The notes beneath the pieces are model-generated. The model had not been told where the DNA came from. It saw only the letters and a program-made list of their open reading frames with translations, and ran no database searches. Positions 1-44,755 of a DNA stretch of 44,755 bases are shown here, one piece after another. The DNA comes from a virus. The DNA lies in IMG/VR virus record IMGVR_UViG_3300020215_000077, positions 1 through 44,755 of that record. One strand, given 5' to 3'. A program made the translations under genes and the position numbers. Numbering within the stretch: position 1 is the first letter of the stretch; every line of letters begins with the position of its first letter.

Positions 1-118
1 CACCGCCCTGGCCTTTGCCATCGACGGCACCAACACCGCCTGGAACCTGGGTTACCGGACCTTCTCGGTCGAGAACTTCTGGATCCCGAACAGCGCCACG
101 GCGGCGTCCGTCTGCGGG
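1..118. repeat. Terminal direct repeat, left copy (identical to 44638..44755); circular-assembly overlap or terminal redundancy
   Basis: Bases 1-118 (caccgccctggcctttgcc...gtccgtctgcggg) recur exactly at 44638-44755. The offset 44637 is divisible by 3, so the tail-gene frame is preserved across the junction. Confidence 0.95.
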
Positions 119-394
119 GCGATCTTCAGTGAAGTCTCGGCTCTCAAGAACGAAATCAACTTCTCAACCTCGCTCATCACCCACCTCAATCTCTTGGATC
201 GCGTCGAAATCACCTACGATGCTACGGACTTCTCAACCCGCAACGAATACTGGGATATCGGCGACTGGGACGAGATGAAGTGGGATGGTAGCCGGGGCGA
301 TGCCATCGTCTTGCAAGCTGAGGCGTTTAAGGTATTATCCATTAATATAAACTTGGATAATCTGGAGACGCGCTTTGTCTGCAGGCAGCTCTGA
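2..394 (+). CDS. Tail hub/Tal-like protein, C-terminal part (continuation of 43646..44755 across the circular junction; about 462 aa in total)
   Basis: Hand translation from nt 2 is open in the same frame as the ORF running off the window end, with stop TGA at 392-394. The gene follows the tape measure and Dit-like genes. Confidence 0.8.
   Translation, partial: TALAFAIDGTNTAWNLGYRTFSVENFWIPNSATAASVCGAIFSEVSALKNEINFSTSLITHLNLLDRVEITYDATDFSTRNEYWDIGDWDEMKWDGSRGDAIVLQAEAFKVLSININLDNLETRFVCRQL
311..338 (+). promoter_or_regulatory. Candidate sigma70-type promoter TTGCAA-N16-TATTAT inside the 3' end of the tail gene, upstream of the sugar operon
   Basis: TTGCAA at 311-316 and TATTAT at 333-338, 16-nt spacer. 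It lies in a local AT-rich patch (ggtattatccattaatataaac) that is unusual for this GC-rich genome, and the first sugar-operon gene starts at 375. Confidence 0.4.
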
Positions 395-1334
395 GGAGGC
401 CTACCGGGCCTACCGCGAGCGCTACCTCTCGGCGCCCAGGCTTTCTCTGAAAGCCCCGGTGGACGTGTCGCTGGAGCTTTCTAGCTTCTGCAACATGGCC
501 TGCAGCTACTGCTACCACGCCGACAAGAAGGCGCTGCCGTTCAAGCAGCAGTTCATGCTGCCCGAGACGGTGAAATCGATCCTCCGCCAGGCCGCAGACG
601 CCGGGGTTAACTCGGTGAAATTCAACTGGCGAGGGGAATCGACCATGAATCCCTTCTTCGCAGCTGCCACGGCCACCGCGCGGGGCCTGGCTTCCGGCTC
701 GACCTTCATCGACCGGCTTACCAACTCCAATTTCAAGTTCGATACCGCCAGGGATGACATCTTCGAAGGTCTTTGCAACCAGACGAAGGTGAAGGTCTCC
801 TACGACTCCTTCCGCCCCGAGGTCTTCGAGCGCCAGCGGCGTCTCGGGGACCACGCCCTCACGATGGCCAACATCGACCGCTTCTACAACTGGCCTGGGC
901 GCAAGACGGTCCTCGTCATCCAGGCGGTCAGGACCGCGCTCAACGCCGACGAGGACATCGAGGGCGAGGTCCGCCGCCGCTGGCCAGACGCCCTGGTCTC
1001 GATCCGGGACATGGTGGAAGGCCGGGTGGACCGCGATCTCACCGGGATCAGGCACAAGGCCCGCGACTACTCCGAGCGCCAGTCCTGCATCCAGGCCCAC
1101 GCCCGCCTCATCTTCGATTGGGACGGCGCGGCCGTCCCCTGCTGCCCGGACATCAAGCAGGAGCTTCGGCTCGGCAACATCCGCGAGAAGACCCTCATCG
1201 AGATCTGGGAGAGCCGGGAGGCCACGCGCCTTCGGGCCGACCTCCTCTCAGGCAAGGCGTTCGAGAACTCGCCGTGCAAGAACTGCTCGAGCTTCGAGAC
1301 CTTCAAGGGCTACCAGGCGTCATTCGATTCATGA
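375..1334 (+). CDS. Radical SAM enzyme with C-terminal SPASM/twitch-like Cys-rich domain
   Basis: CX3CX2C motif (SSFCNMACSYCY). The C-terminal cysteine cluster is CIQA...VPCCPD...SPCKNCSSF. TTG start is preceded by GGAGA with a 6-nt spacer. Confidence 0.85.
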   Translation: MSAGSSEEAYRAYRERYLSAPRLSLKAPVDVSLELSSFCNMACSYCYHADKKALPFKQQFMLPETVKSILRQAADAGVNSVKFNWRGESTMNPFFAAATATARGLASGSTFIDRLTNSNFKFDTARDDIFEGLCNQTKVKVSYDSFRPEVFERQRRLGDHALTMANIDRFYNWPGRKTVLVIQAVRTALNADEDIEGEVRRRWPDALVSIRDMVEGRVDRDLTGIRHKARDYSERQSCIQAHARLIFDWDGAAVPCCPDIKQELRLGNIREKTLIEIWESREATRLRADLLSGKAFENSPCKNCSSFETFKGYQASFDS

Positions 1335-2689
1335 CAGGTCGCGTGGGCATCGTGGTCTGCTCGCGCACGGACTCGGCAAGGCTTCCGCAGAAGCCTTTCC
1401 AGAAGGTCCGTGGCAAGTACCTATTGGCTCACCTGCTCGACCGCCTGATCGCCACGGGGCTCCCGGTCTACCTGGCGGTCCCTGAGCGCGAGGTCGGCCG
1501 CTACACAAGGCGGCTTGAGCCCTACCTCGCCCAGCGCCGGGTCATCATCTTCGGCGGCGACAAGAACGACCCGCTAAAGCGCACCCACGACGTGGCCCGC
1601 CACTACGACCTGGATCACGTGATCCGCGTCTGCCACGACAAGGTCTTCATCAACTACAAGCAGGTGGACCACTTCCTCCACCACTACTTCGAGCACCGCC
1701 TCGACTACCTCTACTCCACGAACTTCATCCCGGGCATGGGCTTCGAGATCTTTTCGCGCGAGGTCCTGACCAAGGCGCATGAGACCTTCAAGGGGGTCGA
1801 GCACCTCTCCTATGCGGTGGAGTCGGCGGCCGCCAGGGTCCAGAACCTGACCCACTTCCCCTACAACCGCTCCTGGCTCTCCCGGAAGAAACCCAACGCG
1901 GGCCTGCGCCTCCTCGTGGACTTCCCCGAGGACCTAGATCAGATCGCCCGCCTCATGACGACGCTGGGCTCGGATTGCGGGATCCTCGACATCGTGGCCT
2001 CGATCCCCGACGTCCGGCAGATGAACGCCCTGCCCGAGGTGACCGTCTACACCTGCAGCTTCGAGGACGTGGAGCACCTGGACCGCTGCGTCCAATCGGT
2101 CCTTGGTCAGAGCTACTCATCCTTCGAGTACCTCCTCATCGACGACGGGTCGGTCAAAACGCCTGTCCATAAATACATGGGCAAGTACGCCAAGGACCCA
2201 AGGGTCCACGTCGTGAGGAACCAGGCCAACCGCGGGCTGGCCAGCTCGAGCAACGTCGCCGCGGCAATGGCGCGGGGGCGCTACGTGATTCGCCTCGATG
2301 CCGACGACTTCTTCGTAGACGAGAAGGTCTTGGAGCGCATGGTCCGGCACATGGAGCTTTCCCAGGCCGACATCCTCTACCCCAACAACTACCGGGACGG
2401 GCGGATCCAGGAGGGCTGCGAGCAGCACCACGTCGGCGGCACGATGTTCAAGAAGCGGACGCTGGACTACCTGCGTTTCACCGACGGGCTTCGGCACTAC
2501 GAAGGCCTAGACCTCTACCACCGCGCGATGATGGCCAAGCGCGTCATCGACTACTTCCGGGAGCCCACCTTCTACTACCGCCAGCGGGCGGGAAGCCTAA
2601 GCCGCGATCCCTCGCCGGAGCGCCAGCTGGTGGCCGCCAGGCTCTCGGCCGGGATCGTGGGCGAGGATCTCTTGAAGGAGCCAGCGTGA
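1331..2689 (+). CDS. Fusion protein: SpsF/CMP-sugar cytidylyltransferase-like N-domain plus family-2 glycosyltransferase (GT-A) C-domain
   Basis: ATG 1331 overlaps the upstream stop (ATGA). The N-terminus GIVVCSRTDSARLPQKPF..GKYLL resembles CTP_transf_3/SpsF proteins. The C-terminus has VTVYTCSFEDVEHLDRCVQSVLGQSY..LLIDDGS and RLDADD (DXD). The 773 start in the ORF track is a shadow extension. Confidence 0.8.
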   Translation: MTGRVGIVVCSRTDSARLPQKPFQKVRGKYLLAHLLDRLIATGLPVYLAVPEREVGRYTRRLEPYLAQRRVIIFGGDKNDPLKRTHDVARHYDLDHVIRVCHDKVFINYKQVDHFLHHYFEHRLDYLYSTNFIPGMGFEIFSREVLTKAHETFKGVEHLSYAVESAAARVQNLTHFPYNRSWLSRKKPNAGLRLLVDFPEDLDQIARLMTTLGSDCGILDIVASIPDVRQMNALPEVTVYTCSFEDVEHLDRCVQSVLGQSYSSFEYLLIDDGSVKTPVHKYMGKYAKDPRVHVVRNQANRGLASSSNVAAAMARGRYVIRLDADDFFVDEKVLERMVRHMELSQADILYPNNYRDGRIQEGCEQHHVGGTMFKKRTLDYLRFTDGLRHYEGLDLYHRAMMAKRVIDYFREPTFYYRQRAGSLSRDPSPERQLVAARLSAGIVGEDLLKEPA

Positions 2690-3045
2690 AGAGTGAGGCG
2701 ATCGACATCCTGAAGCTCTATGCCGAGGGGTCGGCCAAGCAGTGGAACGCCTTCCTGGCCGAGGCCTTGAGACGGCGCGACGTCGCCGGACTCACCGACG
2801 TCCTTAGGCGCCTGGCCATGGGCATGGACAACTTGGTCCAGCAAAAGCTCAACACCGACAAGATCAACGTCCTCTTCCTCAGGCTCCAGCGCTCGGTCGA
2901 GAACACGATTCGCGACATCCACCGTCTCAAGAACCCCAACCCCCTCTTCGTCATCTCGGACAAGGCCCTCCACAAGGATCACATCGAGGACAAGCGAAGG
3001 AAGCAGCAGGAGCTCGAGCGCTTCCTCCACAAGGTGAGGTACTGA
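2686..3045 (+). CDS. Hypothetical protein within the sugar operon
   Basis: 119-aa ORF with a GTGA start/stop overlap with the upstream gene. No motif recognised. Confidence 0.6.
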   Translation: MKSEAIDILKLYAEGSAKQWNAFLAEALRRRDVAGLTDVLRRLAMGMDNLVQQKLNTDKINVLFLRLQRSVENTIRDIHRLKNPNPLFVISDKALHKDHIEDKRRKQQELERFLHKVRY

Positions 3046-3047
3046 CC

Positions 3048-3776
3048 ATGCAGCTGTGTGGCGTCATCGCCGAGTGCGGGAACCACGCCCTGGGCAGCGT
3101 CGAGTCCGCCAAGGAGCAGATCCGGGTGGCGCGCGAGTGCGGCGCCACCTACGCCAAGTTCCAGGCGATCGACACGGAGGCGTTCACCGGCGGGTCGATG
3201 ACGCCGGCTTTCTACGAGCTCTGCGATCTTGGCTACGCCCGCTACTTGGAGCTCGTGGCCTACGGTGACGAGCTCGGGATCCCCGTCTTCTTCTCGGTCT
3301 TCGGCCCGAAGTACGCGGCGCTCGCGAGGATCAAGGGCAAGCCCTACAAGATCGCCGGCAGCCAGTTCGAGAAGATGCCCCTGCCGGAGCTCGCGGCCTG
3401 GAACGAGCAGACCGAGCACCCTGTGGTCGTCTCCGTGCCGCATACCGAAGAGAGCGTGATCCGCGAGCGGCGCGAGGCGCTCTCCCACATGTCGGTCATG
3501 TACGTCGTCAACTACCTGCCCGACCAAGTCACCTTCTTCAGTCTCGAGCGCCTGAGGCGCATTCTTAATCAGCCCATCGGCTACTCCTGCCACGCAGCCG
3601 GGGTCGATCACGCCATCGAGGCGATCGCCGAGCACGGGGCGCCCTTGGTGGAGAAGCACTTCAACCTCTGGGGCGACCAGACCTACGACGGCCGCATCTA
3701 CCGCGACTCCCTGCATGCCGCGAGCCCCAAGGAGCTCGAGCGGCTCTGTTCCTTTTACCACGCTCATTCGAGGTGA
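3048..3776 (+). CDS. NeuB-family nonulosonic acid (sialic/pseudaminic/legionaminic-type) synthase-like TIM-barrel protein, no SAF domain
   Basis: Motifs occur in NeuB order: VIAECGNHALGSVESAKEQIRVARECGATYAKFQ, PYKIAGSQ, IGYSCHAAG, LVEKHF and SPKELERL. SD AGGTGAGG precedes the ATG. Confidence 0.8.
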   Translation: MQLCGVIAECGNHALGSVESAKEQIRVARECGATYAKFQAIDTEAFTGGSMTPAFYELCDLGYARYLELVAYGDELGIPVFFSVFGPKYAALARIKGKPYKIAGSQFEKMPLPELAAWNEQTEHPVVVSVPHTEESVIRERREALSHMSVMYVVNYLPDQVTFFSLERLRRILNQPIGYSCHAAGVDHAIEAIAEHGAPLVEKHFNLWGDQTYDGRIYRDSLHAASPKELERLCSFYHAHSR

Positions 3777-3780
3777 CCCC

Positions 3781-5088
3781 GTGATTTGCCCGATCTGCCG
3801 CAACACCGGCGCGGACTGGAAGAACGTTGACCAGTTCCGCCTCAAGCCCGAGGGGATGGCGCTCTGCGACATCTGCGGGTTCATCTCGTATCCGAAAAAG
3901 TACCGCTCCAAGAGCGAGATCGTCGCTTACTACAAGAAGGACTACCGGGCGCCGCCCAACGCCAGCAACGTCCACACGTCGATCCGTAAGGTCCAGTACC
4001 ACGCCCACTTCCTGGCGGACGTCATCAAGGAGTGGCGCGCCGCCGGCAGGAAAGCCGTCGTCACCGACGTCGGCTCGGCGTTCGGCTACTTCCTGAACTG
4101 GATCCGCGGCGAGCTCCCGGGCTCGGAGGTCTGCGGGGTCGAACTGACGACGAGCTATGTGCGCGCGGCCTGGAACCGCTACCAGATCAAAACCACCGAC
4201 GAATTCGACGATTCCCGCCAATACGACCTCGTGGCCTCCTACAAGAGCCTAGAGCACATCCTCGATCCCGACGTCGAGCTGCGGCGCTACATCAAGGCGC
4301 TGAAGCCCGACGGCTTCCTCTACCTCTCGGTGCCGCTCTGGTTCGAGCAGATGAAGAACTTCGGGATGAACGGCTTTGACCTCGAGTACTACTACTCGCC
4401 AAACCACATCAACACCTGGACCCGAAAGCACTTCGAGGGTCTCATCCGGGTCTCGGGCGGCGAGATCGTGAAGCAGAACGACTCCTACTACGAGGCCACC
4501 TACCTCGTGAAACGAAACGATGCGCTCGTCACCGACGACCGCTCGTCGCTCTTCGAGAACCCCGAAGAGATCATCGAGAAGATGACCCGCCTGCAGCAAG
4601 CCTCAGAGGCCTACCAGGCGGGCGACTTTCGGAAGGTCCTAGAGCTCTGGCCCAACTGCCCCTCGGCCTGGTCCACCCATTACGAGATGAACCGCAAGCA
4701 GCTCCACGACCTAGGCTTTGACTACATCTACAAGGAGATCTGCGTCGGCGCGATCGACGCCACCGGCGGCGACGCAGACGCCCACTGGCTCGCGGCCGAC
4801 ATCTGCGCCCGTTACGATCGATACGATGCGGCTATACAGCACCTGAACGAGGCCAACCGCCTGCGCCCCAACATGCCGCATGTTTTCGGGGCTCTGGTGA
4901 ACTACCTCGGCGCCCTCGGCAAATTGGCGAAGGACGAGAAGGCCAAGGTAAACTTTTTCATGCAGGCCCGTCAGGCCGCGCGGATCCTGGGCGAGATCGC
5001 TCCGGAGCACAAGACCGAGGCGCTCACGCTCGAGCTCTACTACGACTCCCACGTCCCGACCCCGTGGGAGCAGCAGGCAGCAGGGTAA
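3781..5088 (+). CDS. Zn-ribbon plus class I SAM-dependent methyltransferase with a TPR-like helical C-terminal region
   Basis: CPICRN...CDICGF zinc ribbon. Motif I-like VTDVGSAFGYF, with DLVASYKSLEHI and LKPDGFLYLSVP downstream. GTG 3781 follows SD GAGGTGA, and the ORF-track start 3715 overlaps the upstream gene. Confidence 0.8.
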   Translation: MICPICRNTGADWKNVDQFRLKPEGMALCDICGFISYPKKYRSKSEIVAYYKKDYRAPPNASNVHTSIRKVQYHAHFLADVIKEWRAAGRKAVVTDVGSAFGYFLNWIRGELPGSEVCGVELTTSYVRAAWNRYQIKTTDEFDDSRQYDLVASYKSLEHILDPDVELRRYIKALKPDGFLYLSVPLWFEQMKNFGMNGFDLEYYYSPNHINTWTRKHFEGLIRVSGGEIVKQNDSYYEATYLVKRNDALVTDDRSSLFENPEEIIEKMTRLQQASEAYQAGDFRKVLELWPNCPSAWSTHYEMNRKQLHDLGFDYIYKEICVGAIDATGGDADAHWLAADICARYDRYDAAIQHLNEANRLRPNMPHVFGALVNYLGALGKLAKDEKAKVNFFMQARQAARILGEIAPEHKTEALTLELYYDSHVPTPWEQQAAG

Positions 5089-36299: not shown

Positions 36300-36329
36300 G
36301 GGGGGAGAGATCCCCCCTATTTTTCTTTA
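36300..36329 (+). terminator. Rho-independent terminator after the capsid gene
   Basis: GGGGGGA-gaga-TCCCCCC stem-loop followed by tatttttcttt. Confidence 0.75.
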
Positions 36330-37062: not shown

Positions 37063-37536
37063 ATGGCCGACCAGGCCGACATCGTCATCGACGACAAGGA
37101 GGTCCGCGACTACCTCGCGGGTCTCACGAAGCGCTGGGACCAGATCGAAAAGCGCGACAAGGCGGTGGTCGGGATCATCTCGGCGATCGTCTTCCGGGAC
37201 GTCATCCAGCACTTCCAGAGGGAAGAAGGGCCGGATGGTCGCTGGCGGGCCTGGAGCCCGAGCTACGCCAAGTTCATGGCAACGATCGGTAAGTCGGGAA
37301 ACCAGATCCTCCAGGACTCTGGGCGGCTCAGAAACAGTTTCCAGCCCACCAACGCGCGCGCCACGCGCGAAGGCATACTCTGGTTCAACAACGCCAAGAC
37401 CGCCTCGGGCTTCCCCTACGCGGCGGCCCACAACGACGGCGGGGGGCGGCTGCCGCAACGCCGCTTCATGTGGCTCTCGGACGGAGCGGTGGGCGACATC
37501 GCCGAGCAGGTGCTCAACTTCCTGGGGAAGGAATGA
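37063..37536 (+). CDS. Virion morphogenesis protein (Mu gpG-like)
   Basis: ILQDSGRLRNSF...PYAAAHNDGG...PQRRF is typical of the phage virion morphogenesis family. Confidence 0.65.
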   Translation: MADQADIVIDDKEVRDYLAGLTKRWDQIEKRDKAVVGIISAIVFRDVIQHFQREEGPDGRWRAWSPSYAKFMATIGKSGNQILQDSGRLRNSFQPTNARATREGILWFNNAKTASGFPYAAAHNDGGGRLPQRRFMWLSDGAVGDIAEQVLNFLGKE

Positions 37537-37649
37537 TGGACTACCTCGTGGCCGCCATCGTCGTCGCCTTTCTCGCCTTGGCCCACAAGGTGCGCGGGCT
37601 CTCGCGCGGGCGCGTCCGCCTTCGGGTCGTCAAAGGGGGGAAGAAATGA
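37533..37649 (+). CDS. Small membrane protein (38 aa)
   Basis: ATGATG start overlaps the upstream stop, and the stop overlaps the next ATG (ATGA). Single TM, YLVAAIVVAFLALA. Confidence 0.4.
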   Translation: MMDYLVAAIVVAFLALAHKVRGLSRGRVRLRVVKGGKK

Positions 37650-38140
37650 CCGTCAACCTCTCCAACATCAAGACCCAGCTGAAGGCGGTCTTAGACACCG
37701 CCAACACCACCACCGCCGCCTTCGACCTCTCGACCGGGCTCTCGACCCGCGTCCAGAAGGTGCTGAAGGTCCACCCGGGTCTCATCCCCCAGCAGGCCTC
37801 CTTCTACCCGTGGGTCACGACCTTCGTGGACAAGAAGGAGGTCGAGCACGCGACCATCGCCAAGGACCAGATCACCGCCAAGCGCATGGGCACGGTGACC
37901 ATGAAGGTCGTGGGCGGGGTCTGGGAGCCGACCGTCTCTGACGTCACCGCGGACGCCGCCGACGAGGCCATCGAGAAGCTGATGGAGAACGTCGAGGAGG
38001 TCGTCCGCCGGAGCTTCAAGCTAAACAACGCCGTCCAATGGACCAAGACCGAGGACGTCTCCTACTACGCCTGGCCGGTGAAGGAGGACACGCACCTTAG
38101 GTTCGGGGTCCTAACACTCACCGCGAAGGTCGATTACTAG
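37646..38140 (+). CDS. Neck / tail-terminator-like protein
   Basis: 164-aa ORF between the morphogenesis genes and the tube gene. No motif recognised. Confidence 0.5.
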   Translation: MTVNLSNIKTQLKAVLDTANTTTAAFDLSTGLSTRVQKVLKVHPGLIPQQASFYPWVTTFVDKKEVEHATIAKDQITAKRMGTVTMKVVGGVWEPTVSDVTADAADEAIEKLMENVEEVVRRSFKLNNAVQWTKTEDVSYYAWPVKEDTHLRFGVLTLTAKVDY

Positions 38141-39154
38141 ATGCAGCAAGCCCAAGAGGCAGATGCCCGTCGCCACGAGCTAGACGTCCGCCGCCAGTCC
38201 CAAGCCGCCTACGCCCAGTGGGCCAAGATCTGGCGCGAGCACGCCAAGGAGCATGCCCGCCACGAGATGAAGGACATGCTGGCCCTCCAGAACGTGGGGA
38301 TCGGCAAGGCATGTCTGGTCATCGCCAACGGCCACAGCTTCGAGAAGAACCTGGAGACGATCCGCAAGTACCAGGGGAACGTCGATATCCTGGCCGTGGA
38401 CAAGTGCGTGAGGCATTGCCTCGAGAACGGGATCACGCCGACCTACGCCTTGGTCTGCGACGCGAACGTCTCCTACGAGACCTACATGCAGCCGGTGGAG
38501 CACCTGCTCCAGGACACGATCCTCTTGGCCAACGTCTGCGCCAACCCCAAGTGGGCGGCCAGCGGCAACTGGAAGGACCGCTACTTCTTCGTCAACAAGG
38601 ACGTCTTGAAGTCCGAGGCCGAGTTCATGGCGCTCTCGGGCTGCAAGAACGTCATCCCGGCCGGCACCAACGTCAGTAACTGCGCCATCGTCGTCCTGAC
38701 CCAGTGCGACGAGGCCGGCAAGCGCAACTTCTTCGGCTACGACAAGCTGCTCATGATCGGCTTCGATTACGCGTGGGGCGACGACTCCTACTACGCGTTT
38801 GACCGCGAGGGCGGCGGCAAGCGGCACTACATGAAGACGGTCTACGCCTTCAACCTGCGCTCGGAGCTTGTATATACCTCGTCCAACCTGCTGTTCTCCG
38901 CCAAGTGGATCGAGCGCTACATCACTGTCTTCAAAGTGCCGGCCGTCCAGTGCTCCACGGATTCCATCCTGCGCGGCTGGAAGCTTGGAAACCTCGAAGA
39001 GCAGCTGCAATATCGCTACAAGCCCGAAGATGCGAAGCGTGTAATCGACCTGTTAGAATATCGACGTAACCTCCAAGCCCAGATCGACGGGATCAACCGG
39101 CAGATCATGGACGTCGGCCGGGATCACTTCAAACAGCTTATGAGGACAAGCTAA
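38141..39154 (+). CDS. DUF115/MptE-like (Maf, motility-accessory-factor type) putative nonulosonate glycosyltransferase
   Basis: GKACLVIANGHSFEKNLETIRKYQGNVDILAVDKCVRHCLENGITPTYALVCDAN matches the DUF115 core pattern (G..IvGnGPSL...i.avd.a...L...gI.PD..v..D). The gene lies directly upstream of the tail tube gene. Confidence 0.6.
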   Translation: MQQAQEADARRHELDVRRQSQAAYAQWAKIWREHAKEHARHEMKDMLALQNVGIGKACLVIANGHSFEKNLETIRKYQGNVDILAVDKCVRHCLENGITPTYALVCDANVSYETYMQPVEHLLQDTILLANVCANPKWAASGNWKDRYFFVNKDVLKSEAEFMALSGCKNVIPAGTNVSNCAIVVLTQCDEAGKRNFFGYDKLLMIGFDYAWGDDSYYAFDREGGGKRHYMKTVYAFNLRSELVYTSSNLLFSAKWIERYITVFKVPAVQCSTDSILRGWKLGNLEEQLQYRYKPEDAKRVIDLLEYRRNLQAQIDGINRQIMDVGRDHFKQLMRTS

Positions 39155-40200
39155 TGGCGGTCGGCGACAGCTCGCTCTTCGCAGGCGAAAGCTACCTGGG
39201 GCTTGGTCGCGAGACCACCTACGGCACCTACGCGACCGCCGGCGCCGGGCTCGACTTCATCTCGGCTGCGATCAAGACGACGAAAGACGCCAAGATCCTG
39301 GAGCAGGTCGAGCGCAAGCGGACCATGTCCAAGCAGATGTCCTTGGGCAAGACGGTCGAGGGCGAGGTCGAGGCGTACTTTACGCCCGACGTCACCGCCA
39401 TGGGCTATCTCCTGCAGAACGCGTTTGGCGGCACGGTCACCTCGGCCACCGCCACCGGCGAGACGGCGGGTGGGTCGGCGTTCACGCACACCTTCTCCGA
39501 AGGGTCGATGGACCAGACCTACAAGTCGCTCTCGGCCAACATGAGGAAGGGCCCGAGCTCGGGCGGCAAGGTCTGGCGGTATCTTGGCGGCCGGGTCAAC
39601 TCGCTTTCGCTCCAGGCCGAGCTCGACGAGCCGCTCAAGATCAACGCGGCGTTGATCTTCAAGGACTCGACCCAGCAGTCTGACGACATCGAAACCCTGA
39701 TGACGGCCACCGCCTGGGAGCCCTTGTCCTTCGTCAACGGTCGCTTCTCGGTGGAGACGAGCTTCGCGGCGCTCACCACGACCTCCTTCTGGCACGTTCA
39801 GTCGGTCAGCTTTTCGCTGAACAACAACCTGAAGAACGACACCAACGCCCGCCGCATCGGCTCCGACGTCCTCTCGGTCCTGCCGGTCGGGGTCCAGAGC
39901 TACGAGCTCTCCTGCCAGATCCGCTTCGATACCACGACGGCGTATGACGCCATGATCGCGGCGACGAAGCTGGCGGCGGAGTTCGAGTTCCAGGGGACGA
40001 CTCTCACGACCTCGTCCATCAAGCGCGGTCTCAAGGTCCAGTTCCAGAAGGTCTACGTGAAGGACGCCGGCGACCCCGAGGTCTCGGGCCCGGACGGGAT
40101 CCTCATGGCCAACGTCGTCTTCAACGTCCTGCGTGACGAGTCGGCCTCGGGCTACGCTGTCCGGGCACTCCTCACCAACTCGGTGGCGAACTACAGCTGA
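39154..40200 (+). CDS. Major tail tube protein
   Basis: 348-aa Ser/Thr-rich ORF immediately upstream of the G/G-T chaperone and the tape measure gene. Confidence 0.7.
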   Translation: MAVGDSSLFAGESYLGLGRETTYGTYATAGAGLDFISAAIKTTKDAKILEQVERKRTMSKQMSLGKTVEGEVEAYFTPDVTAMGYLLQNAFGGTVTSATATGETAGGSAFTHTFSEGSMDQTYKSLSANMRKGPSSGGKVWRYLGGRVNSLSLQAELDEPLKINAALIFKDSTQQSDDIETLMTATAWEPLSFVNGRFSVETSFAALTTTSFWHVQSVSFSLNNNLKNDTNARRIGSDVLSVLPVGVQSYELSCQIRFDTTTAYDAMIAATKLAAEFEFQGTTLTTSSIKRGLKVQFQKVYVKDAGDPEVSGPDGILMANVVFNVLRDESASGYAVRALLTNSVANYS

Positions 40201-40583
40201 TGCTCTTCGCCTTCCTCCGCCGCGGGGGCGATCTCGCGGGCCACCTGCGCCGGACAAAGAAGGTCCGGGCGGGTGGTTTCGACTTCGAGATCCGCAAGGT
40301 CAACGTCCAGGACCACCTGGCGGGCCTCAACGTCATCCTGGCCCTTCACGAGCTCTACAAGCGCGAGAAGCCTTCGTCTCCCGAGAAGCAGATCGAGGAC
40401 GACGCCAAGATCCGAAAGTTCATGCGCGACTTCCTCTATGCCGGGGTCGCCTCGCCCAAGCTCTCGATGAAGGACCCGCCCGACGAGGGGACGATCTCGG
40501 TGGACGAGCTCTGCCGGGACGTCCAGATCGCCCAAGCGCTCTGCATCGAGATTCTGAACTTCTCGTACGGAAAAAAAAACTAG
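40200..40583 (+). CDS. Tail assembly chaperone (gpG-like)
   Basis: Lies between the tube and tape measure genes and ends in the slippery run GGAAAAAAAAAC TAG. Confidence 0.8.
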   Translation: MLFAFLRRGGDLAGHLRRTKKVRAGGFDFEIRKVNVQDHLAGLNVILALHELYKREKPSSPEKQIEDDAKIRKFMRDFLYAGVASPKLSMKDPPDEGTISVDELCRDVQIAQALCIEILNFSYGKKN

Positions 40584-40762
40584 AGCGCTTCCGGTACGCG
40601 AAGGCCCGCGCCCTCGAGCTCGACTTCCTGGCGCGCCGCTACTGCCAGCTGCCCTCTGACCTCGCGAAACTCTCGCTCCCCGACTTCGGGATGAACCTTT
40701 TCATCGCCTCCGTGGCCGCTGAGGAGGAGGCGAAGAGGGCGGCAAAGCAGCATGGCAAATAA
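40200..40762 (+). CDS. Tail assembly chaperone G-T fusion made by a -1 programmed frameshift
   Basis: The -1 frame is open from the A-run to TAA at 40760-40762 (...VRKKKLERFRYAKARALE...), which overlaps the tape measure start. Confidence 0.75.
40571..40579 (+). promoter_or_regulatory. Slippery sequence A_AAA_AAA(A) for a -1 ribosomal frameshift
   Basis: Nine consecutive A residues at 40571-40579, just before the zero-frame stop TAG at 40581. Confidence 0.75.
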
Positions 40763-42860
40763 AGAGGCGACACTTCTTCTTCGGATCAAGGAAGCCGGCG
40801 CCGAGGCCCTGGGCAAGGTCAAGCTTGGCTTCGAGGCGGTGGCCACCGCTGCGGCCGTCGTCGGCACCGCACTCGTCGCCTTCGGTGTCGCCGCGGTCAA
40901 GGCCTTCGGCGAGTCCGAGGAGGCCGGCAAGCGCCTCACCCAGGCCATCAAGAACCAGGGTCTGGACGTCGATGGGCTGACCAAGAGCTACACCGCCCTG
41001 GCTGAGCAGCTGCAACGGCAGACCGTCTTCGAAGACGACGCCATCAAGTCCGCCATTGCCATCGGCCAGGCGATGGCCGGCAACATCGCCCTTACCGAGG
41101 ACCTGATTCGGGCCACGGTGGACTATGCCGCGGCTACCGGCACCGACCTCCACTCCGCCTTCGAGAGGGTGGGCAAAGCGATTGGTGGCAATGCCACGGC
41201 GCTTTCTCGAGAGCTGGGGATCGCCCTCGATGAATCCGCGAGCAAGTCGGAGAAACTGGCGCAGGTTACAGACGCCCTGACGGCAAAGTTCGACGGCTTT
41301 GCCCAGAGTCAGGCCGAGGGGCTTGGCGCCGTAAAGCAGATGTCCAATGAGGTCGGCGACCTCATGGAGATGGTCGGCGAGCTCCTGGCGCCCGCCGTCG
41401 TCGCCTCCACGCGGCAGATCAACACGGCGCTTCGGGCGTTGAAGGACATCTTCTCGGAGCTGCCAGCCCACGTCTCTGGCCTGCTACGGACGGTGACCGA
41501 CTACTGGAAGGCGTTCGCCCAGGACGGCGTTACGATCTTCGGGGGCCTGAAGGACGTCATCGCTGGCACGTTCACCTTTGACATGGAGCAGCTCCGCAAG
41601 GGCCTAGAGACCCTGAACCAGGAGACCAAGGTCTCCGCCTACGACTTCAAGCAGAGCTTCATCGACGGCTTCAACGAGCGCTCCAAGGCGTTCGAGGAAA
41701 CGATCGACAAGCAGCTCAAGGCCGAGGAGGGGGCCAACACCAAGGCGGTCGATGCCGCCAAGCGGGTGGCCGACCGGAAGAAGGCTGCCGCAGAGAAGGC
41801 GAAGGACGAGGAGATCTCGAAGATCGCCGCCAAGCAGGCCGCCGCCGACGCGAAAGCTGCTGCGGCCGCCGATGCGCTCGCCGACCAGATGGCCGCGGAG
41901 AACGTCCGGGCGAAGGAAGAGGAACTAGTCGAGATCGAGGAGGCGCAGGCGGCCGCCAACGAGCGTATGCGCCAGGCGCAACTCGACGAGATGAAGGAGC
42001 TCGGGAACTATGCCTCGTCCTTCATCTCGGGCGGTTTCCAGGACATCGCCAAGACTGCCGTCACGTCTCTTACCGAGTCCTTCCTCCCTGGCTTTGGCCA
42101 AGCCGCCGGCCAGCTCTTCTCGCTGCTGGCCCAGGACTCCGAGAAGTTCGGCGAGAGCCTGAACCAGATTTTCTCGGTCAAGTTCCTGAGCAACATCGCC
42201 CAGAACATCTCGATCTTCGCCGAGCGCCTGCCCGAGCTCATCGACTCGCTGGCCAAGGAGCTGCCGGCGATCGTGCAGAAGCTGATCGCGGCGCTGATCG
42301 AAGCCAGCCCGCAGATCATGATCGCCTTCATGAAGGCCCTGAACGACCCCGAGTTCTACGTCGCCATGGTCAAGGCGATCGCCGGCGGTGTCACCGAAGG
42401 TGTCGTCGGCGGCTTCAAAGGGTCTGTCCACGGCGCCGTCGAGGCCTTGAAGGACATCTGGAACAGCATCAAGGACCTATTCAAGATCAAGGTCGAGCTC
42501 CCCAACGTTGGCGGCGGCGGCGGCGGCGGCAAGAAGTGGTACGAGTTCAACAAGGGCGGCCTGGTGCCCGGCATCCAGAAGTTCGCCGCCGGCGGCACCG
42601 TGGACACGGTGCCGGCAATGCTGACCCCCGGCGAGTTCGTCATGAACGCCGAGGCCACCCGGCGCAACTTCAACACGCTGAAGAACATGAACGCCGGCGG
42701 CTCGGGCGGCGGCGGTGGGGGCAGCGTCACAATCAACGTCTACGGCGGTCTCCTTGGAGACGCCGCATCGGCCCGCCAGCTTGCGAAGGCCATCGACTCT
42801 GAGCTCCTGAAGCTGCGTCAGGCGAATCAGTCGGTGTCTTTCGATAGCTCTGCCTTCTGA
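40752..42860 (+). CDS. Tape measure protein
   Basis: 702 aa, Ala-rich and helical, with Gly runs near the C-terminus (GGGGGGKKW; GGSGGGGGGS). The gene follows G/G-T. Confidence 0.85.
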   Translation: MANKEATLLLRIKEAGAEALGKVKLGFEAVATAAAVVGTALVAFGVAAVKAFGESEEAGKRLTQAIKNQGLDVDGLTKSYTALAEQLQRQTVFEDDAIKSAIAIGQAMAGNIALTEDLIRATVDYAAATGTDLHSAFERVGKAIGGNATALSRELGIALDESASKSEKLAQVTDALTAKFDGFAQSQAEGLGAVKQMSNEVGDLMEMVGELLAPAVVASTRQINTALRALKDIFSELPAHVSGLLRTVTDYWKAFAQDGVTIFGGLKDVIAGTFTFDMEQLRKGLETLNQETKVSAYDFKQSFIDGFNERSKAFEETIDKQLKAEEGANTKAVDAAKRVADRKKAAAEKAKDEEISKIAAKQAAADAKAAAAADALADQMAAENVRAKEEELVEIEEAQAAANERMRQAQLDEMKELGNYASSFISGGFQDIAKTAVTSLTESFLPGFGQAAGQLFSLLAQDSEKFGESLNQIFSVKFLSNIAQNISIFAERLPELIDSLAKELPAIVQKLIAALIEASPQIMIAFMKALNDPEFYVAMVKAIAGGVTEGVVGGFKGSVHGAVEALKDIWNSIKDLFKIKVELPNVGGGGGGGKKWYEFNKGGLVPGIQKFAAGGTVDTVPAMLTPGEFVMNAEATRRNFNTLKNMNAGGSGGGGGGSVTINVYGGLLGDAASARQLAKAIDSELLKLRQANQSVSFDSSAF

Positions 42861-42869
42861 GGGACTACG

Positions 42870-43649
42870 ATGGAGATCCTGCGAAAGAACTACGCTGAGA
42901 CCACCACCCAGTTCGTGGTGAACTCCAACACGGCGACCGTGGCCAACGTCCTAAACCCGGACGTGCGCTTTCAGTACGCGTCGGACAACTTCACCGACGA
43001 CAACACCACGGTTTCGATGCGGATCAACTTCGATCAGACCCAGACGATCGACCGCATCGCCTTGGTGGGCCATAACCTGAAGTCGTTCACCGTCTACTAC
43101 AACGGGACGACGGCAAGCACGTTCGCCCTGACCTCGACGGCCAACACCTCAGCGTCCAACTACTCGACCAACTCCGACACGTCCCACTACTTCGCCTTTT
43201 CGCCCGTGGCCTGCACCTCGGTCTCGATCGACATGAAGGCCACGATCACGCCGAACCAGAACAAGACCCTTGGGTATCTGGTCATCTCCGATAAGCGCAC
43301 GGACTTCGGCGGTCGGGTCCCGTCTGCCCAGAACTACAAGCCAGTTCTCGACACCCAGGCGGTGGTCCACCGGCTCTCTGACGGCGGGACGCGCATCCAG
43401 ACGCTCGAGGACAAGTGGGCGGTGCAGCTCTCGCTCGACTTCGTCACCGAGACGGTCCGGTCCGAGCTCCGGTCCATCTTCGATGACCATGAGGAAGTCA
43501 TCTTTTGCCCCTTCGGGACCACCACCGGCTGGGATGCGGTCGTATTCCCGTGTGTCTGGGAGGGGGGCTTTAACTTCTACCAGCACTCGGACAACGCCGC
43601 TGACGCCGGCTTCTCGGGGTCCTTGGTCCTAAGGGAGACCCCGCAGTGA
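42870..43649 (+). CDS. Distal tail protein (Dit)-like, with an N-terminal beta-sandwich domain that may bind carbohydrate
   Basis: Lies directly after the tape measure gene. IDRIALVGHNLKSFTVYYNG resembles discoidin/galactose-binding-like strands. Confidence 0.5.
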   Translation: MEILRKNYAETTTQFVVNSNTATVANVLNPDVRFQYASDNFTDDNTTVSMRINFDQTQTIDRIALVGHNLKSFTVYYNGTTASTFALTSTANTSASNYSTNSDTSHYFAFSPVACTSVSIDMKATITPNQNKTLGYLVISDKRTDFGGRVPSAQNYKPVLDTQAVVHRLSDGGTRIQTLEDKWAVQLSLDFVTETVRSELRSIFDDHEEVIFCPFGTTTGWDAVVFPCVWEGGFNFYQHSDNAADAGFSGSLVLRETPQ

Positions 43650-44755
43650 CGGCGACCCTATGGGATGCCAATAACTGGGACAACGAGCTCACCTGGGACG
43701 ATGGCACGGCCACGATCCTGGAGATGATCAAGCGGCCCCACGTCCGCGTCTTCCGCCGCGCCTACATTAAGCGCCGGCTCCTGGCCACCGGGCTCTTCGA
43801 GACCGACTGGTACGAGATCACCCGAGACGTCAAACGCTGGGGGTCGATCAACAGCAACATCGACGTCGAGCGGGTGGGAAAGCTCGACTTCAATGGCCTG
43901 CAGCTCGTTGTCTCTAACATCGACGGTAGCTACAACCCGGACGACAACGAGGACTCGCTGTGGTCGGGATACGCCAACCAGCAACGATCCCTGGTCAAGA
44001 TCGAGTGCGGCTTCTACAACCAGTACCGGAGCGTGGACGGGGTCTGGCGGACCGACGAGGTGCCCGAGGATCCCACCGTCTTCGTGGGTATCATCTCGGG
44101 CAACATCGACGTCTCGGACGCCAACGAGGTCACGCTCGAGATCCAGCCGGTCACCCAGGTCTTCCGCGACTTCCCAGCGCATCTCGTCACCGGCTTCACG
44201 AGCACGGGGATCACGGCCAGCCAGTACATCCAGCTCCTCAGGGACCTGACCTCGGGTGCTGGCACCTACGTCTTCCGGCCGTTCTTTGGCAACGACTCGG
44301 CCTACTTCGAGCTCACCTCGACGAGCCAGGTCTATGCTGGCCTGAATACCAGTACCGCAGCCGACTTCTACCAGATGACCGTCTGGGACGTGGTGGAGCG
44401 TCTGGCGCAGGCCGAGAACTTCGTGGCCTACATCACACCCACCGGGAAGTTCCGGTGGGTGCCGAAGACCGTCTCCGCCTCGACGCAGTATAAGTTCTTC
44501 GGCTTGGGGTTCAGCCCGGATCGTGAGTACGGACACACGCTGAAGCGGATCTACCGTTACGGGAAGAAGCTCACGAGCTTCTACTCGCGCGTCGCCGTGA
44601 AGTACGACAAGGCCGACACCAGCACGTCGTTCGTTAGCACCGCCCTGGCCTTTGCCATCGACGGCACCAACACCGCCTGGAACCTGGGTTACCGGACCTT
44701 CTCGGTCGAGAACTTCTGGATCCCGAACAGCGCCACGGCGGCGTCCGTCTGCGGG
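43646..44755 (+). CDS. Tail hub/Tal-like protein, N-terminal part (continues at 2..394 across the junction)
   Basis: GTG 43646 overlaps the upstream stop (GTGA). Hand translation (VTATLWDANNWDNELTWDDG...) is open to the window end. The ORF is absent from the track because it has no stop inside the window. Confidence 0.8.
   Translation, partial: MTATLWDANNWDNELTWDDGTATILEMIKRPHVRVFRRAYIKRRLLATGLFETDWYEITRDVKRWGSINSNIDVERVGKLDFNGLQLVVSNIDGSYNPDDNEDSLWSGYANQQRSLVKIECGFYNQYRSVDGVWRTDEVPEDPTVFVGIISGNIDVSDANEVTLEIQPVTQVFRDFPAHLVTGFTSTGITASQYIQLLRDLTSGAGTYVFRPFFGNDSAYFELTSTSQVYAGLNTSTAADFYQMTVWDVVERLAQAENFVAYITPTGKFRWVPKTVSASTQYKFFGLGFSPDREYGHTLKRIYRYGKKLTSFYSRVAVKYDKADTSTSFVSTALAFAIDGTNTAWNLGYRTFSVENFWIPNSATAASVCG
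44638..44755. repeat. Terminal direct repeat, right copy (identical to 1..118)
   Basis: Exact 118-nt match to the window start. Confidence 0.95.

What the first reader, a model, noticed from the sequence alone, without database searches (positions are those of the whole stretch)
38141..39154. Maf/DUF115-like transferase gene immediately upstream of the major tail tube gene
The 337-aa ORF carries a DUF115/MptE-like core (GKACLVIANGHSFEKNL...VDILAVDKCVRHCLENGITPTYALVCDAN). In bacteria, Maf proteins of this family are the proposed enzymes that put CMP-activated pseudaminic or legionaminic acid onto flagellin Ser/Thr. Here the gene interrupts an otherwise canonical order (neck, then tube, then G/G-T, then tape measure). 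The next gene, the tube protein at 39154..40200, is Ser/Thr-rich and polymerises into a helical filament, which is formally analogous to flagellin. This is the missing transferase for the sugar operon at 375..5088. The split location next to its likely substrate is notable.
Basis: partly seen in the sequence, partly recalled or inferred. Interest (0 to 1): 0.85.

Follow-up and report, generated by a model that had tools for sequence, protein, structure and literature searches.

The report
Minimal Maf glycosyltransferase in phage tail
A half-sized relative of the bacterial enzyme that sugar-coats flagella sits just before the tail-tube gene in a large group of uncultured phages that mostly also make an activated sugar acid, so they probably glycosylate their own tails, a modification not yet described.

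Summary
ORF 38141-39154 encodes a 337-aa protein that passes Pfam PF01973. Its confident AlphaFold model is closest to the only solved Maf flagellin glycosyltransferase (5MU5). It keeps every residue that is invariant in the bacterial Maf catalytic core.

It is a stripped-down Maf. The N-terminal Rossmann-like domain and the C-terminal flagellin-binding domain are missing.

The gene lies directly upstream of the tail-tube gene in 77 of 77 related loci. The same holds in two distant lineages, one with a different head module. A cultured phage with a distantly related tube lacks it.

The interpretation needs correcting. The window is a circularly permuted genome, so the sugar genes lie only 5.9 kb downstream in the same late gene block. 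The sugar is not specifically pseudaminic or legionaminic acid, because the synthase slot alternates between NeuB-like and DAHP-synthase-like enzymes and the cytidylyltransferase resembles KdsB. One Maf-carrying lineage has no sugar genes at all.

Best reading (about 0.45): a cytoplasmic O-glycosyltransferase that puts a CMP-activated 3-deoxy-ulosonic acid on a virion protein, most likely the tube. The acceptor is inferred and not shown. I found no cultured-phage homologue and no paper on it.

The parts
38141..39154 (+). Minimal Maf-type (PF01973) glycosyltransferase, 337 aa: N-terminal helix 2-38, alpha/beta catalytic core about 45-290, C-terminal helix 295-336
   Evidence: Pfam 57.5 bits. 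AF2 pLDDT 93.8. Foldseek 5MU5 E 4.8e-11. hhalign to bacterial Mafs E 8.4e-30. G64, S66, D87, D107, V178, G207, D209 and N249 are invariant from phage lineages to bacterial Mafs.
39154..40200 (+). Major tail tube protein (348 aa), the proposed acceptor. Its start codon overlaps the Maf stop (TAATG). A conserved Ser/Thr loop, GGTVTSATATGET, lies at residues about 92-104.
   Evidence: PF18906 Phage_tube_2, 99.8 bits, and phrog_290. Junction sequence. Motif conservation. Maf is directly upstream in 77 of 77 loci.
37646..38140 (+). p164, a neck or tail-completion-region protein immediately upstream. Its stop TAG abuts the Maf ATG.
   Evidence: Gene calls in L001. Zero-nt gap. No Pfam hit.
37063..37536 (+). 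Phage_tail_S (virion morphogenesis / tail completion) protein
   Evidence: PF05069, 35.7 bits.
40200..40583 (+). Tail assembly chaperone G (127 aa), ending in the slippery run GAAAAAAAAAC (40570-40580). The -1 frame stays open to 40762 (G-T product).
   Evidence: Sequence. ORFs 40200..40583 and 40133..40762.
40752..42860 (+). Tape measure protein (702 aa)
   Evidence: PHROG tape-measure hits.
42870..43649 (+). p259, a conserved distal tail protein (21.6% Ser+Thr)
   Evidence: Synteny in all relatives. Composition.
43646..44755 (+). p461, a conserved tail-tip protein. It runs over the window end and continues at 119-394 (bases 1-118 repeat the window's last 118 bases).
   Evidence: L001 gene 15506-16891. 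118-nt terminal overlap and mapping.
375..1334 (+). Radical SAM/SPASM enzyme. Its auxiliary-cluster domain is nearest BtrN, a sugar-type dehydrogenase.
   Evidence: PF13186 50.3 bits and PF04055. PDB BtrN E 4.8e-8.
1331..2689 (+). Fusion of a CMP-ulosonate cytidylyltransferase (CTP_transf_3, KdsB/NeuA-like) with a GT2 glycosyltransferase (452 aa)
   Evidence: PF02348 51.3 bits and PF00535 85.5 bits. PDB 6OEW, KdsB, chondroitin synthase, 6P61. Gene call.
2686..3045 (+). p119, a conserved all-helical protein of unknown role
   Evidence: Conserved position. AF2 single-sequence model with 5 helices, pLDDT 69.7. No structural neighbour.
3048..3776 (+). Short NeuB-like ulosonic acid synthase (242 aa, no SAF domain). 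The slot is variable and holds a DAHP-synthase-like enzyme in many relatives.
   Evidence: PF03102 60 bits. PDB 6NCS E 1.2e-7. Slot variation.
3781..5088 (+). SAM-dependent methyltransferase with weak C-terminal TPR repeat hits (435 aa)
   Evidence: PF13489 49.9 bits; TPR hits are below threshold. Gene call.

Best explanation
The gene encodes a minimal Maf-type glycosyltransferase: the catalytic core of the bacterial flagellin nonulosonic-acid transferases without their flanking domains. It is made late in infection, from the same tightly packed transcript as the tail genes.

Proposed mechanism. In the cytoplasm it takes a CMP-activated 3-deoxy-2-ulosonic acid and transfers it to Ser/Thr hydroxyls of a virion structural protein. 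The most likely acceptor is the major tail tube subunit encoded immediately downstream, modified before it polymerises. This parallels Maf modifying flagellin before export. In this clade the phage supplies the donor itself: a PEP-dependent synthase (NeuB-like here, DAHP-synthase-like in many relatives) and a KdsB/NeuA-like cytidylyltransferase. The rSAM enzyme and the methyltransferase probably tailor the sugar, and the fused GT2 domain probably adds a further sugar. Lineages without these genes would use host CMP-sugars such as CMP-Kdo.

Shown: family membership, fold, retained catalytic-core residues, gene order and its conservation, and the nature of the partner enzymes.

Inferred: catalytic activity, donor identity, and above all the acceptor.
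For: Family and fold:
- PF01973 at 57.5 bits.
- Profile hit to 5MU5.
- Foldseek top hit 5MU5 at E 4.8e-11, ahead of MptE at 1.5e-5.
- hhalign probability 99.8% to bacterial Mafs, which themselves hit the NCBIfam PseD model.

Likely still an enzyme:
- Eight core residues are invariant across three phage lineages and bacterial Mafs, including D107, which aligns with the only invariant Asp of the bacterial set.
- Median identity across the clade is 51.6%, comparable with the tube (54.2%) and capsid protein (57.2%), and higher than p164, p259 or p461.

Linkage to the tube:
- Maf is directly upstream in 77 of 77 loci, covering 61 distinct tube sequences.
- The arrangement recurs in L116, L144 and the HK97-head lineage L117.
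- The Maf stop and tube start overlap.
- Marinitoga phage MPV1, with a distantly related tube, has the canonical order without Maf.

Linkage to the donor pathway:
- All 34 viral loci found through CTP-GT2 belong to this clade.
- The gene block is contiguous.

Integral late genes, not morons:
- GC3 and codon usage match the structural genes, gaps are 0 to -4 nt, and there are no separate promoter or terminator signals.

Published precedents:
- Mafs transfer CMP-Neu5Ac and CMP-Kdo as well as Pse/Leg (bioRxiv 10.1101/2020.06.03.131540; PMC11339370).
- Mycobacteriophage capsid and tail tube subunits are glycosylated (Freeman et al. 2023, as summarised in PMC12619734).
Against: - There is no direct evidence of glycosylation or of the acceptor.
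- The Maf-tube adjacency may simply be inherited. The distant lineages share a homologous tail module (p259 and p461 at 21-23% identity), so they are not fully independent observations.
- The conserved Ser/Thr loop of the tube is only partly kept in L144 and is absent in L117.
- Ser/Thr richness is shared with p259 and the capsid protein.
- The protein lacks every acceptor-binding element known in Mafs, and no GlfM-like adaptor was found.
- The bacterial GGS motif reads GTN in the phage family.
- The whole-protein PseD model scores only 22.9 bits against a cut-off of 670.
- One lineage has Maf but no donor genes.
Confidence: 0.45

Rival explanations
1. It is an active Maf-type transferase, but the acceptor is a different virion protein, or several of them (capsid protein, p259, p461, fibres). 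The position beside the tube gene is historical and says nothing about function.
For: p259 (21.6% Ser+Thr) and the capsid protein (17.3%) are as Ser/Thr-rich as the tube. In mycobacteriophages both the capsid and the tube are glycosylated (PMC12619734, citing Freeman 2023). Adjacency in a syntenic module is expected from vertical descent alone.
Against: The gene stays next to the tube across lineages that have exchanged head modules, and it is translationally coupled to the tube. Nothing points to a specific alternative acceptor.
Confidence: 0.17
2. It is a lysogenic-conversion kit. The temperate phage uses Maf and the sugar genes to alter the host's flagellin or surface polysaccharide, for example to block superinfection.
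For: The phage is temperate, with an integrase at 27232-28365. Flagellin is the only proven Maf substrate (PMC11339370; bioRxiv 10.1101/2023.12.03.569772). Prophage enzymes that modify nonulosonic acids of the host capsule are documented in Acinetobacter (PMC12053666, PMC6586298).
Against: The genes are embedded in the late structural block with 0 to -4 nt gaps and no promoter or terminator of their own. Their composition matches the structural genes, whereas p332 does look foreign. They are clade-wide core genes across hosts of 32-64% GC, not variable morons. The flagellin-binding domains are missing.
Confidence: 0.1
3. The transferase acts on a glycan or lipid and not on a protein. It would work as a Kdo/sialyl-transferase-like enzyme that, with GT2, builds an oligosaccharide or modifies a host envelope glycan during infection.
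For: The fold is shared with sialyltransferases (GT29 hits). A bacterial Maf relative gives a weak hit to the WaaZ Kdo transferase model. A GT2 domain is present in the module.
Against: The closest relatives by sequence and structure are protein-modifying Mafs. There is no membrane segment or lipid-carrier enzyme in the module. The gene's conserved place is in the tail morphogenesis block.
Confidence: 0.1
4. It is an exapted, non-catalytic Maf fold that serves as a tail assembly factor or a structural neck-tube component.
For: It sits where tail terminator or tube-associated proteins are normally encoded. It is conserved as strongly as structural proteins. One lineage keeps it without any donor pathway. 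Long terminal helices could mediate protein-protein contacts.
Against: All residues invariant in the bacterial catalytic core are retained over very long divergence, including in the donor-less lineage. That pattern is not expected for a purely structural relic. Host CMP-Kdo could supply the donor.
Confidence: 0.1
5. It is an MptE-like pyrophosphokinase or another small-molecule enzyme of the PF01973 superfamily.
For: The Pfam family is named after MptE. Foldseek hits M. jannaschii HPPK at E 1.5e-5.
Against: The Maf match is six orders of magnitude better and covers 291 columns. Homology to Mafs extends beyond the shared domain, to profile position 290. There are no pterin or folate genes nearby.
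Confidence: 0.03

Closest known systems
Bacterial Maf (motility-associated factor) flagellin nonulosonic-acid O-glycosyltransferases: M. magneticum Maf (PDB 5MU5), Shewanella Maf-1/Maf-2, C. botulinum CbMaf
   Same: Homologous PF01973/MAF_flag10 catalytic core by sequence profile and fold, with the invariant core residues shared. Encoded near genes that make and CMP-activate a 2-keto-3-deoxy sugar acid. Cytoplasmic. The putative acceptor is a subunit of a helical extracellular filament.
   Different: About half the size: there is no N-terminal Rossmann-like domain and no C-terminal helical or TPR flagellin-binding domain, and no GlfM-like partner was found. It is encoded in a phage tail module with no flagellar genes. 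The GGS motif reads GTN. The full-length PseD model is not met. The acceptor, if the tube, is a beta-rich protein unrelated to flagellin.
Mycobacteriophage virion glycosylation (Freeman et al. 2023, as summarised in PMC12619734)
   Same: Phage-encoded enzymes glycosylate virion proteins, including the tail tube subunit.
   Different: From my own knowledge, those systems use conventional nucleotide-diphospho-sugar glycosyltransferases and hexose-type glycans at protein C-termini. Here the enzyme is Maf-type, the donor a CMP-activated ulosonic acid, and the phage carries its own synthase and cytidylyltransferase. The primary paper could not be read here.
Prophage-encoded modification of host capsular nonulosonic acids in Acinetobacter baumannii (PMC12053666, PMC6586298)
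   Same: Temperate phages carry enzymes of nonulosonic-acid chemistry.
   Different: Those are accessory conversion genes acting on the host polysaccharide. Here the genes are clade-wide core genes inside the late structural block and include a protein-type transferase.
MptE, the archaeal 6-hydroxymethylpterin diphosphokinase (PDB 8SD5/8SBU)
   Same: Same Pfam family and the same basic Rossmann-like fold.
   Different: A much weaker structural match than to Maf. There is no pterin-pathway context. Homology to Mafs extends beyond the shared domain.
Uncultured-phage 'MptE-like' proteins in UniProt/BFVD (A0A6J5PG89, A0A0F7L3H2)
   Same: True relatives: 50% and 24% identity, TM-scores 0.81 and 0.70.
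   Different: They are automatic annotations only. No function, context or substrate has been described.

Membership tests
Maf flagellin nonulosonic-acid glycosyltransferases | Central MAF_flag10 / PF01973 domain above Pfam's gathering score | tested here: met
   57.5 bits against a cut-off of 34.6, residues 37-214.
Maf flagellin nonulosonic-acid glycosyltransferases | Fold of the Maf central domain (Cst-II-like GT-A variant) | tested here: met
   AF2 model pLDDT 93.8. Foldseek top hit 5MU5 at E 4.8e-11, TM 0.57 on the query, 291 columns. GT29 sialyltransferases appear lower in the list.
Maf flagellin nonulosonic-acid glycosyltransferases | Conserved catalytic-core residues shared with bacterial Mafs | tested here: met
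   G64, S66, D87, D107, V178, G207, D209 and N249 are invariant across phage lineages and bacterial Mafs. hhalign E 8.4e-30.
Maf flagellin nonulosonic-acid glycosyltransferases | The experimentally essential aspartate (Shewanella Maf-1 D247 / Maf-2 D261) | tested here: inconclusive
   The only invariant Asp of 18 bacterial Mafs (D289 of P0215) aligns with D107.
Maf flagellin nonulosonic-acid glycosyltransferases | N-terminal degenerate Rossmann-like domain (about 200 aa) | tested here: not met
   The phage protein starts at the equivalent of Maf residue about 225. Only one helix (2-38) precedes the core.
Maf flagellin nonulosonic-acid glycosyltransferases | Acceptor-binding element: C-terminal helical bundle or TPR domain, or a cis-encoded GlfM four-helix adaptor | tested here: not met
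   Only one C-terminal helix (295-336), which is absent in the roughly 300-aa distant forms. Small ORFs downstream of Maf in distant lineages are not helical-bundle-like. p119 is helical but has no significant structural match.
Maf flagellin nonulosonic-acid glycosyltransferases | Genomic association with flagellin or flagellar genes | tested here: not met
   The neighbours are neck, tube, chaperone and tape-measure genes. There are no flagellar genes in the window or in any relative.
Maf flagellin nonulosonic-acid glycosyltransferases | Association with ulosonic-acid synthase and CMP-activating enzyme genes | tested here: met
   NeuB-like and CTP_transf_3 genes lie 5.9 kb downstream and are conserved through the clade. 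This is not met in the L117 lineage.
Maf flagellin nonulosonic-acid glycosyltransferases | Full-length match to NCBIfam PseD (NF050051) | tested here: not met
   22.9 bits against a cut-off of 670; only the core region aligns.
Maf flagellin nonulosonic-acid glycosyltransferases | Transfers a CMP-activated ulosonic acid onto Ser/Thr of a protein | not testable with these tools
   Requires co-expression with mass spectrometry, or an in vitro assay.
MptE-type 6-hydroxymethylpterin diphosphokinase | Closest structural and sequence neighbour is MptE, in a pterin/folate pathway context | tested here: not met
   MptE at E 1.5e-5 against Maf at 4.8e-11. No folate or pterin genes nearby.
Lysogenic-conversion glycan-modification morons | Own regulatory signals, atypical composition, patchy distribution among related phages | tested here: not met
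   Gaps of 0 to -4 nt and no promoter or terminator. GC3 and CAI match the structural genes. Present in all relatives examined.

The most novel reading that the evidence does not exclude
A widespread, wholly uncultured group of temperate siphoviruses (hosts spanning 32-64% GC) coats its tail tube with a sialic-acid-like or Kdo-like sugar acid. The phage makes and CMP-activates the sugar itself and attaches it with a minimal, flagellin-independent Maf. The sugar identity is diversified by swapping the synthase between NeuB-type and DAHP-synthase-type enzymes. This would be the first natural non-flagellin substrate of a Maf enzyme and the first virion shown to carry an O-linked ulosonic acid.
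Probability: 0.35. Interest if true: 0.85.

Novelty: new variant of a known kind. Interest (0 to 1): 0.72.

Why it matters
Maf enzymes are known only as flagellin modifiers, and how they choose their acceptor is still unresolved. A natural Maf reduced to its catalytic core, paired with a non-flagellin filament protein, would show what the core alone can recognise. It would also be a compact tool for attaching sialic-acid-like sugars to proteins.

For phage biology, it would extend virion glycosylation beyond mycobacteriophages to a new chemistry: acidic ulosonic sugars, the class that governs immune recognition and mucus or surface interactions. The swapped synthase suggests selection for glycan diversity on the virion.

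The idea is cheap to test. E. coli already makes CMP-Kdo, which Mafs can use.

Tried and rejected
1. Cultured-phage relatives. Megablast of the tail region found nothing, and tblastn of Maf, the tube and a distant Maf against 50,697 GenBank phages found nothing either. The one exception was a 28%-identity tube match in Marinitoga phages. PHROGs has no family for Maf.

2. GlfM-like adaptor. The small ORFs after Maf in distant lineages are not helical-bundle-like and are unrelated to p119. p119 is helical, but Foldseek gives nothing better than E 0.95. Dropped.

3. The HAD gene upstream of Maf in L014 and L018 as a sugar-phosphate phosphatase. It matches the T4 polynucleotide kinase 3'-phosphatase domain at E 1e-19. 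Not counted as support.

4. The tube Ser/Thr loop as a Maf-linked sequon. It is invariant in the window's clade, partly kept in L144, absent in L117, and Asp/Pro/Gly-rich in the Maf-less MPV1 tube. With one control this is only suggestive.

5. Co-occurrence as a statistical test. Maf and the sugar genes are both core to the clade, so co-occurrence is phylogenetically non-independent. Three of four apparent exceptions had the genes further downstream. L026's contig is incomplete and remains unresolved.

7. Host assignment from MAG titles is inconsistent (Pseudobdellovibrionaceae, Nannocystis, Nitrosotalea, Pricia) and was not trusted.

8. The Freeman et al. 2023 paper is not held.

9. Eight literature searches found no report of a phage Maf/DUF115 or of ulosonic-acid virion glycosylation.
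Full report
**1. The observation**

- It matches Pfam PF01973 (MptE-like / MAF_flag10) at 57.5 bits, against a gathering score of 34.6, over residues 37-214.
- NCBIfam gives only a weak core-region hit to the flagellin modification protein PseD: 22.9 bits against a cut-off of 670.
- The next gene, 39154..40200, is a tail tube protein (PF18906, 99.8 bits; phrog_290).
- The Maf stop codon overlaps the tube start codon (TAATG), and the upstream gene's TAG abuts the Maf ATG.
- The chaperone gene after the tube ends in a GAAAAAAAAAC slippery run, with the -1 frame open up to the tape-measure gene. The 'neck, tube, G/G-T, tape measure' description is therefore correct.

**2. Is it really Maf-like?**

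Yes, by three independent routes.
- A profile of 52 family members hits the only solved Maf (5MU5) in the PDB sequence set at E 3.4e-5.
- A profile-profile comparison with 18 bacterial proteins of about 610-730 aa gives probability 99.8% and E 8.4e-30 over 232 columns. Phage residues 45-290 align with Maf residues 225-461. The nine of these proteins I scanned all hit the PseD model.
- An AlphaFold model of high confidence (pLDDT 93.8, pTM 0.90) has 5MU5 as its best Foldseek match (E 4.8e-11, 291 columns). It is followed at a distance by archaeal MptE (1.5e-5), SteA and GT29 sialyltransferases.

Eight residues are invariant from the window protein, through two increasingly distant phage lineages, to bacterial Mafs: G64, S66, D87, D107, V178, G207, D209 and N249. 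D107 aligns with the only invariant aspartate of the bacterial set. An essential aspartate is documented for Shewanella Maf-1 and Maf-2 (bioRxiv 10.1101/2023.12.03.569772). I could not map it directly.

**3. How it differs from bacterial Mafs**

Published Mafs have three parts (PMC11339370; bioRxiv 10.1101/2023.12.03.569772):
- an N-terminal Rossmann-like domain;
- the central catalytic domain;
- a C-terminal helical or TPR domain that binds flagellin, sometimes replaced by the 89-residue adaptor GlfM.

The phage protein is essentially the central domain alone, flanked by one long N-terminal helix (2-38) and one long C-terminal helix (295-336). More distant phage forms of about 300 aa lack even the C-terminal helix. 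I found no GlfM-like partner.

**4. Where it lives**

The window is a circularly permuted phage genome.
- Its last 118 nt repeat its first 118 nt exactly, and gene p461 spans the junction.
- Another assembly of the same phage shows the true order: Maf, tube, G/GT, TMP, p259, p461, rSAM/SPASM, CTP_transf_3-GT2, p119, NeuB-like, MTase-TPR.
- The sugar genes therefore start 5,858 nt after Maf, in the same co-oriented block.
- All of these genes share the GC3 and codon usage of the structural genes. They are separated by 0 to -4 nt and have no promoter- or terminator-like signals of their own. By contrast p332 looks foreign.
- The phage has a Mu-like portal and protease and an integrase.

**5. How general it is**

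- The large protein database holds 687 relatives. The best 120 are all 276-337 aa, all unnamed, and many are on 38-50 kb contigs.
- An exhaustive profile search finds 58 representative clusters of the short phage type at E <= 1e-30. Bacterial full-length Mafs appear at about 1e-11 to 1e-13.
- No GenBank phage has a detectable homologue of Maf or of this tube, and PHROGs has no family for Maf.
- UniProt's viral set holds uncultured-phage relatives that are auto-named 'MptE-like'.
- Among fetched loci, 77 of 77 with enough upstream sequence carry Maf directly before the tube gene. These cover 61 distinct tube sequences.
- Maf is conserved as well as the main structural proteins: median identity 51.6%, against 54.2% for the tube and 57.2% for the capsid protein.
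- The clade spans 32-64% GC, which implies many different hosts.

**6. Beyond the clade**

- A more distant Mu-like lineage (L116) and two further lineages (L144 and L117) also place a short Maf just upstream of a Phage_tube_2 tube, with one or two small ORFs between them.
- L117 has an HK97-type portal, protease and capsid instead of Mu-like ones. The Maf-tube pairing has therefore survived exchange of the head module.
- The L117 tail module is distantly homologous (p259 and p461 at 21-23% identity), so this is not a fully independent origin.
- Marinitoga phage MPV1, a cultured phage with a distantly related tube, has the canonical order without Maf. Maf is therefore an accessory insertion and not part of the basic module.

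**7. The donor pathway**

Two-way survey:
- All 34 viral loci found through the CTP_transf_3-GT2 fusion belong to this clade.
- Three of four loci that at first seemed to lack sugar genes carry them further downstream.

Nearest solved structures of the partner enzymes:

| Partner | Nearest structures |
|---|---|
| Cytidylyltransferase half | 6OEW and the KdsB CMP-Kdo synthetases |
| GT2 half | chondroitin synthase and 6P61 |
| rSAM auxiliary domain | BtrN, a sugar-type dehydrogenase |
| NeuB-like protein | a short sialic-acid synthase, 6NCS |

The synthase slot is variable:
- 19 loci carry a NeuB-like gene only.
- 24 carry a type I-beta DAHP-synthase-like gene. It scores 143-177 bits to PF00793 and 222-276 bits to DAHP synthase models, against only 36-102 bits to KdsA models.
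- Three of those 24 (L091, L097, L098) also carry a NeuB-like gene.

The constant theme is a PEP-dependent synthase of a 3-deoxy-2-ulosonic acid followed by CMP activation. It is not pseudaminic or legionaminic acid specifically, and no PseB/C/H/G-type genes were seen.

Mafs are known to accept CMP-Neu5Ac and CMP-Kdo as well as their native donors (bioRxiv 10.1101/2020.06.03.131540; PMC11339370).

The entire 36.8-kb genome of the L117 lineage has no synthase, cytidylyltransferase, GT2 or rSAM gene. Its Maf still keeps the core residues. If that enzyme is active, it must use a host CMP-sugar.

**8. Most likely mechanism**

Maf is made late with the tail proteins. In the cytoplasm it transfers a CMP-activated ulosonic acid to Ser/Thr of a virion protein, most plausibly the tube subunit encoded next to it, before polymerisation.

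Arguments for the tube as acceptor:
- the conserved and translationally coupled adjacency;
- loss of all flagellin-binding parts;
- the analogy with flagellin as a filament subunit;
- the precedent of glycosylated tube subunits in mycobacteriophages (PMC12619734, citing Freeman et al. 2023).

These arguments are indirect.
- The clade-invariant loop GGT[VI]TSATATGET is a candidate site. It is only partly kept in L144, is absent in L117, and is replaced by an Asp/Pro/Gly-rich loop in the Maf-less MPV1 tube.
- Ser/Thr richness is not distinctive.

My estimates:

| Claim | Probability |
|---|---|
| Family and fold membership | about 0.95 |
| An active CMP-ulosonate transferase | about 0.7 |
| The full model, with a virion protein (most likely the tube) as acceptor | about 0.45 |

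**9. Rivals**

- Another virion protein is the acceptor.
- Lysogenic conversion of host flagellin or a host glycan. There is precedent in PMC12053666 and PMC6586298. It is disfavoured by the operon structure, the composition and the core-gene status.
- A glycan or lipid acceptor.
- A non-catalytic assembly role, disfavoured by the conserved catalytic residues.
- An MptE-like kinase, disfavoured by the much better Maf match and by the context.

**10. Novelty and verdict**

Eight literature searches found nothing on phage Maf/DUF115 or on ulosonic-acid glycosylation of virions.

I rate this a new variant of a known kind. It is a known enzyme family in a new architecture (core only), a new genomic setting (phage tail module) and a probably new substrate class, with a phage-encoded and diversifying donor pathway.

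The decisive test is simple co-expression with mass spectrometry.

Noticed in passing
window 1-118 and 44638-44755: The window's last 118 nt are identical to its first 118 nt, so the contig is a circularly permuted or terminally redundant genome of 44,637 bp. Gene p461 spans the junction.
   Followed up: yes
window 3048-3776; L085:11938-12762, L111:11670-12482 and others: The ulosonate-synthase slot between p119 and the methyltransferase varies within the clade: NeuB-like only (19 loci), or type I-beta DAHP-synthase-like (24 loci, three of which, L091, L097 and L098, also carry a NeuB-like gene). The flanking genes stay fixed, which suggests diversification of the sugar.
   Followed up: yes
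L014:17805-19151: The rSAM/SPASM gene of this relative carries an insertion of about 125 aa inside the CxxxCxxC cluster motif, with a weak Hint-module hit (E 0.004). It looks like a mini-intein in a phage radical SAM enzyme.
   Followed up: partly
L018:9546-10001; L014:9536-9976: The closest relatives have an extra gene directly upstream of Maf. It encodes a stand-alone HAD phosphatase like the 3'-phosphatase domain of T4 polynucleotide kinase (E 1e-19). Its role is unknown and is probably unrelated to sugar metabolism.
   Followed up: partly
L014:20477-20740: An 87-aa gene with a precomputed Pfam Acb2_Tad1_hairpin hit (an anti-defence nucleotide-sponge family) sits right after the CTP-GT2 gene in this relative.
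   Followed up: no
window 40570-40583 and 40133-40762: There is a canonical tail-chaperone -1 frameshift site: nine consecutive A residues immediately before the G stop codon, with the -1 frame open to the tape-measure start.
   Followed up: yes
window 6033-7031: p332 has clearly deviant GC3 (0.775, against about 0.88-0.92) and codon adaptation (0.51, against 0.66-0.79). It looks like a recently acquired or fast-evolving gene, possibly a receptor-binding protein or a moron.
   Followed up: no
window 36300-36318: A strong GC-rich hairpin followed by a T-run lies just after the major capsid gene. It is the only convincing terminator-like site in the late region and may be an attenuator that sets the capsid-to-tail expression ratio.
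   Followed up: no
L116:6345-6587; L143:1107-1349; L144:1346-1678; L117:8932-9370: In the more distant lineages one or two small ORFs (69-110 aa) lie between Maf and the tube gene. They have no detectable similarity to known families or to p119, and their function is unknown.
   Followed up: partly
window 39427-39465 (tube residues 92-104): The Ser/Thr-rich loop GGTVTSATATGET is nearly invariant across 54 clade members, even though overall tube identity is only about 50%.
   Followed up: partly
window 3781-5088: The methyltransferase of the sugar module carries weak C-terminal TPR-repeat hits. TPR domains are the flagellin-binding element in Maf-1 and FlmG, so this protein could contribute to acceptor recognition or could methylate a protein.
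   Followed up: no
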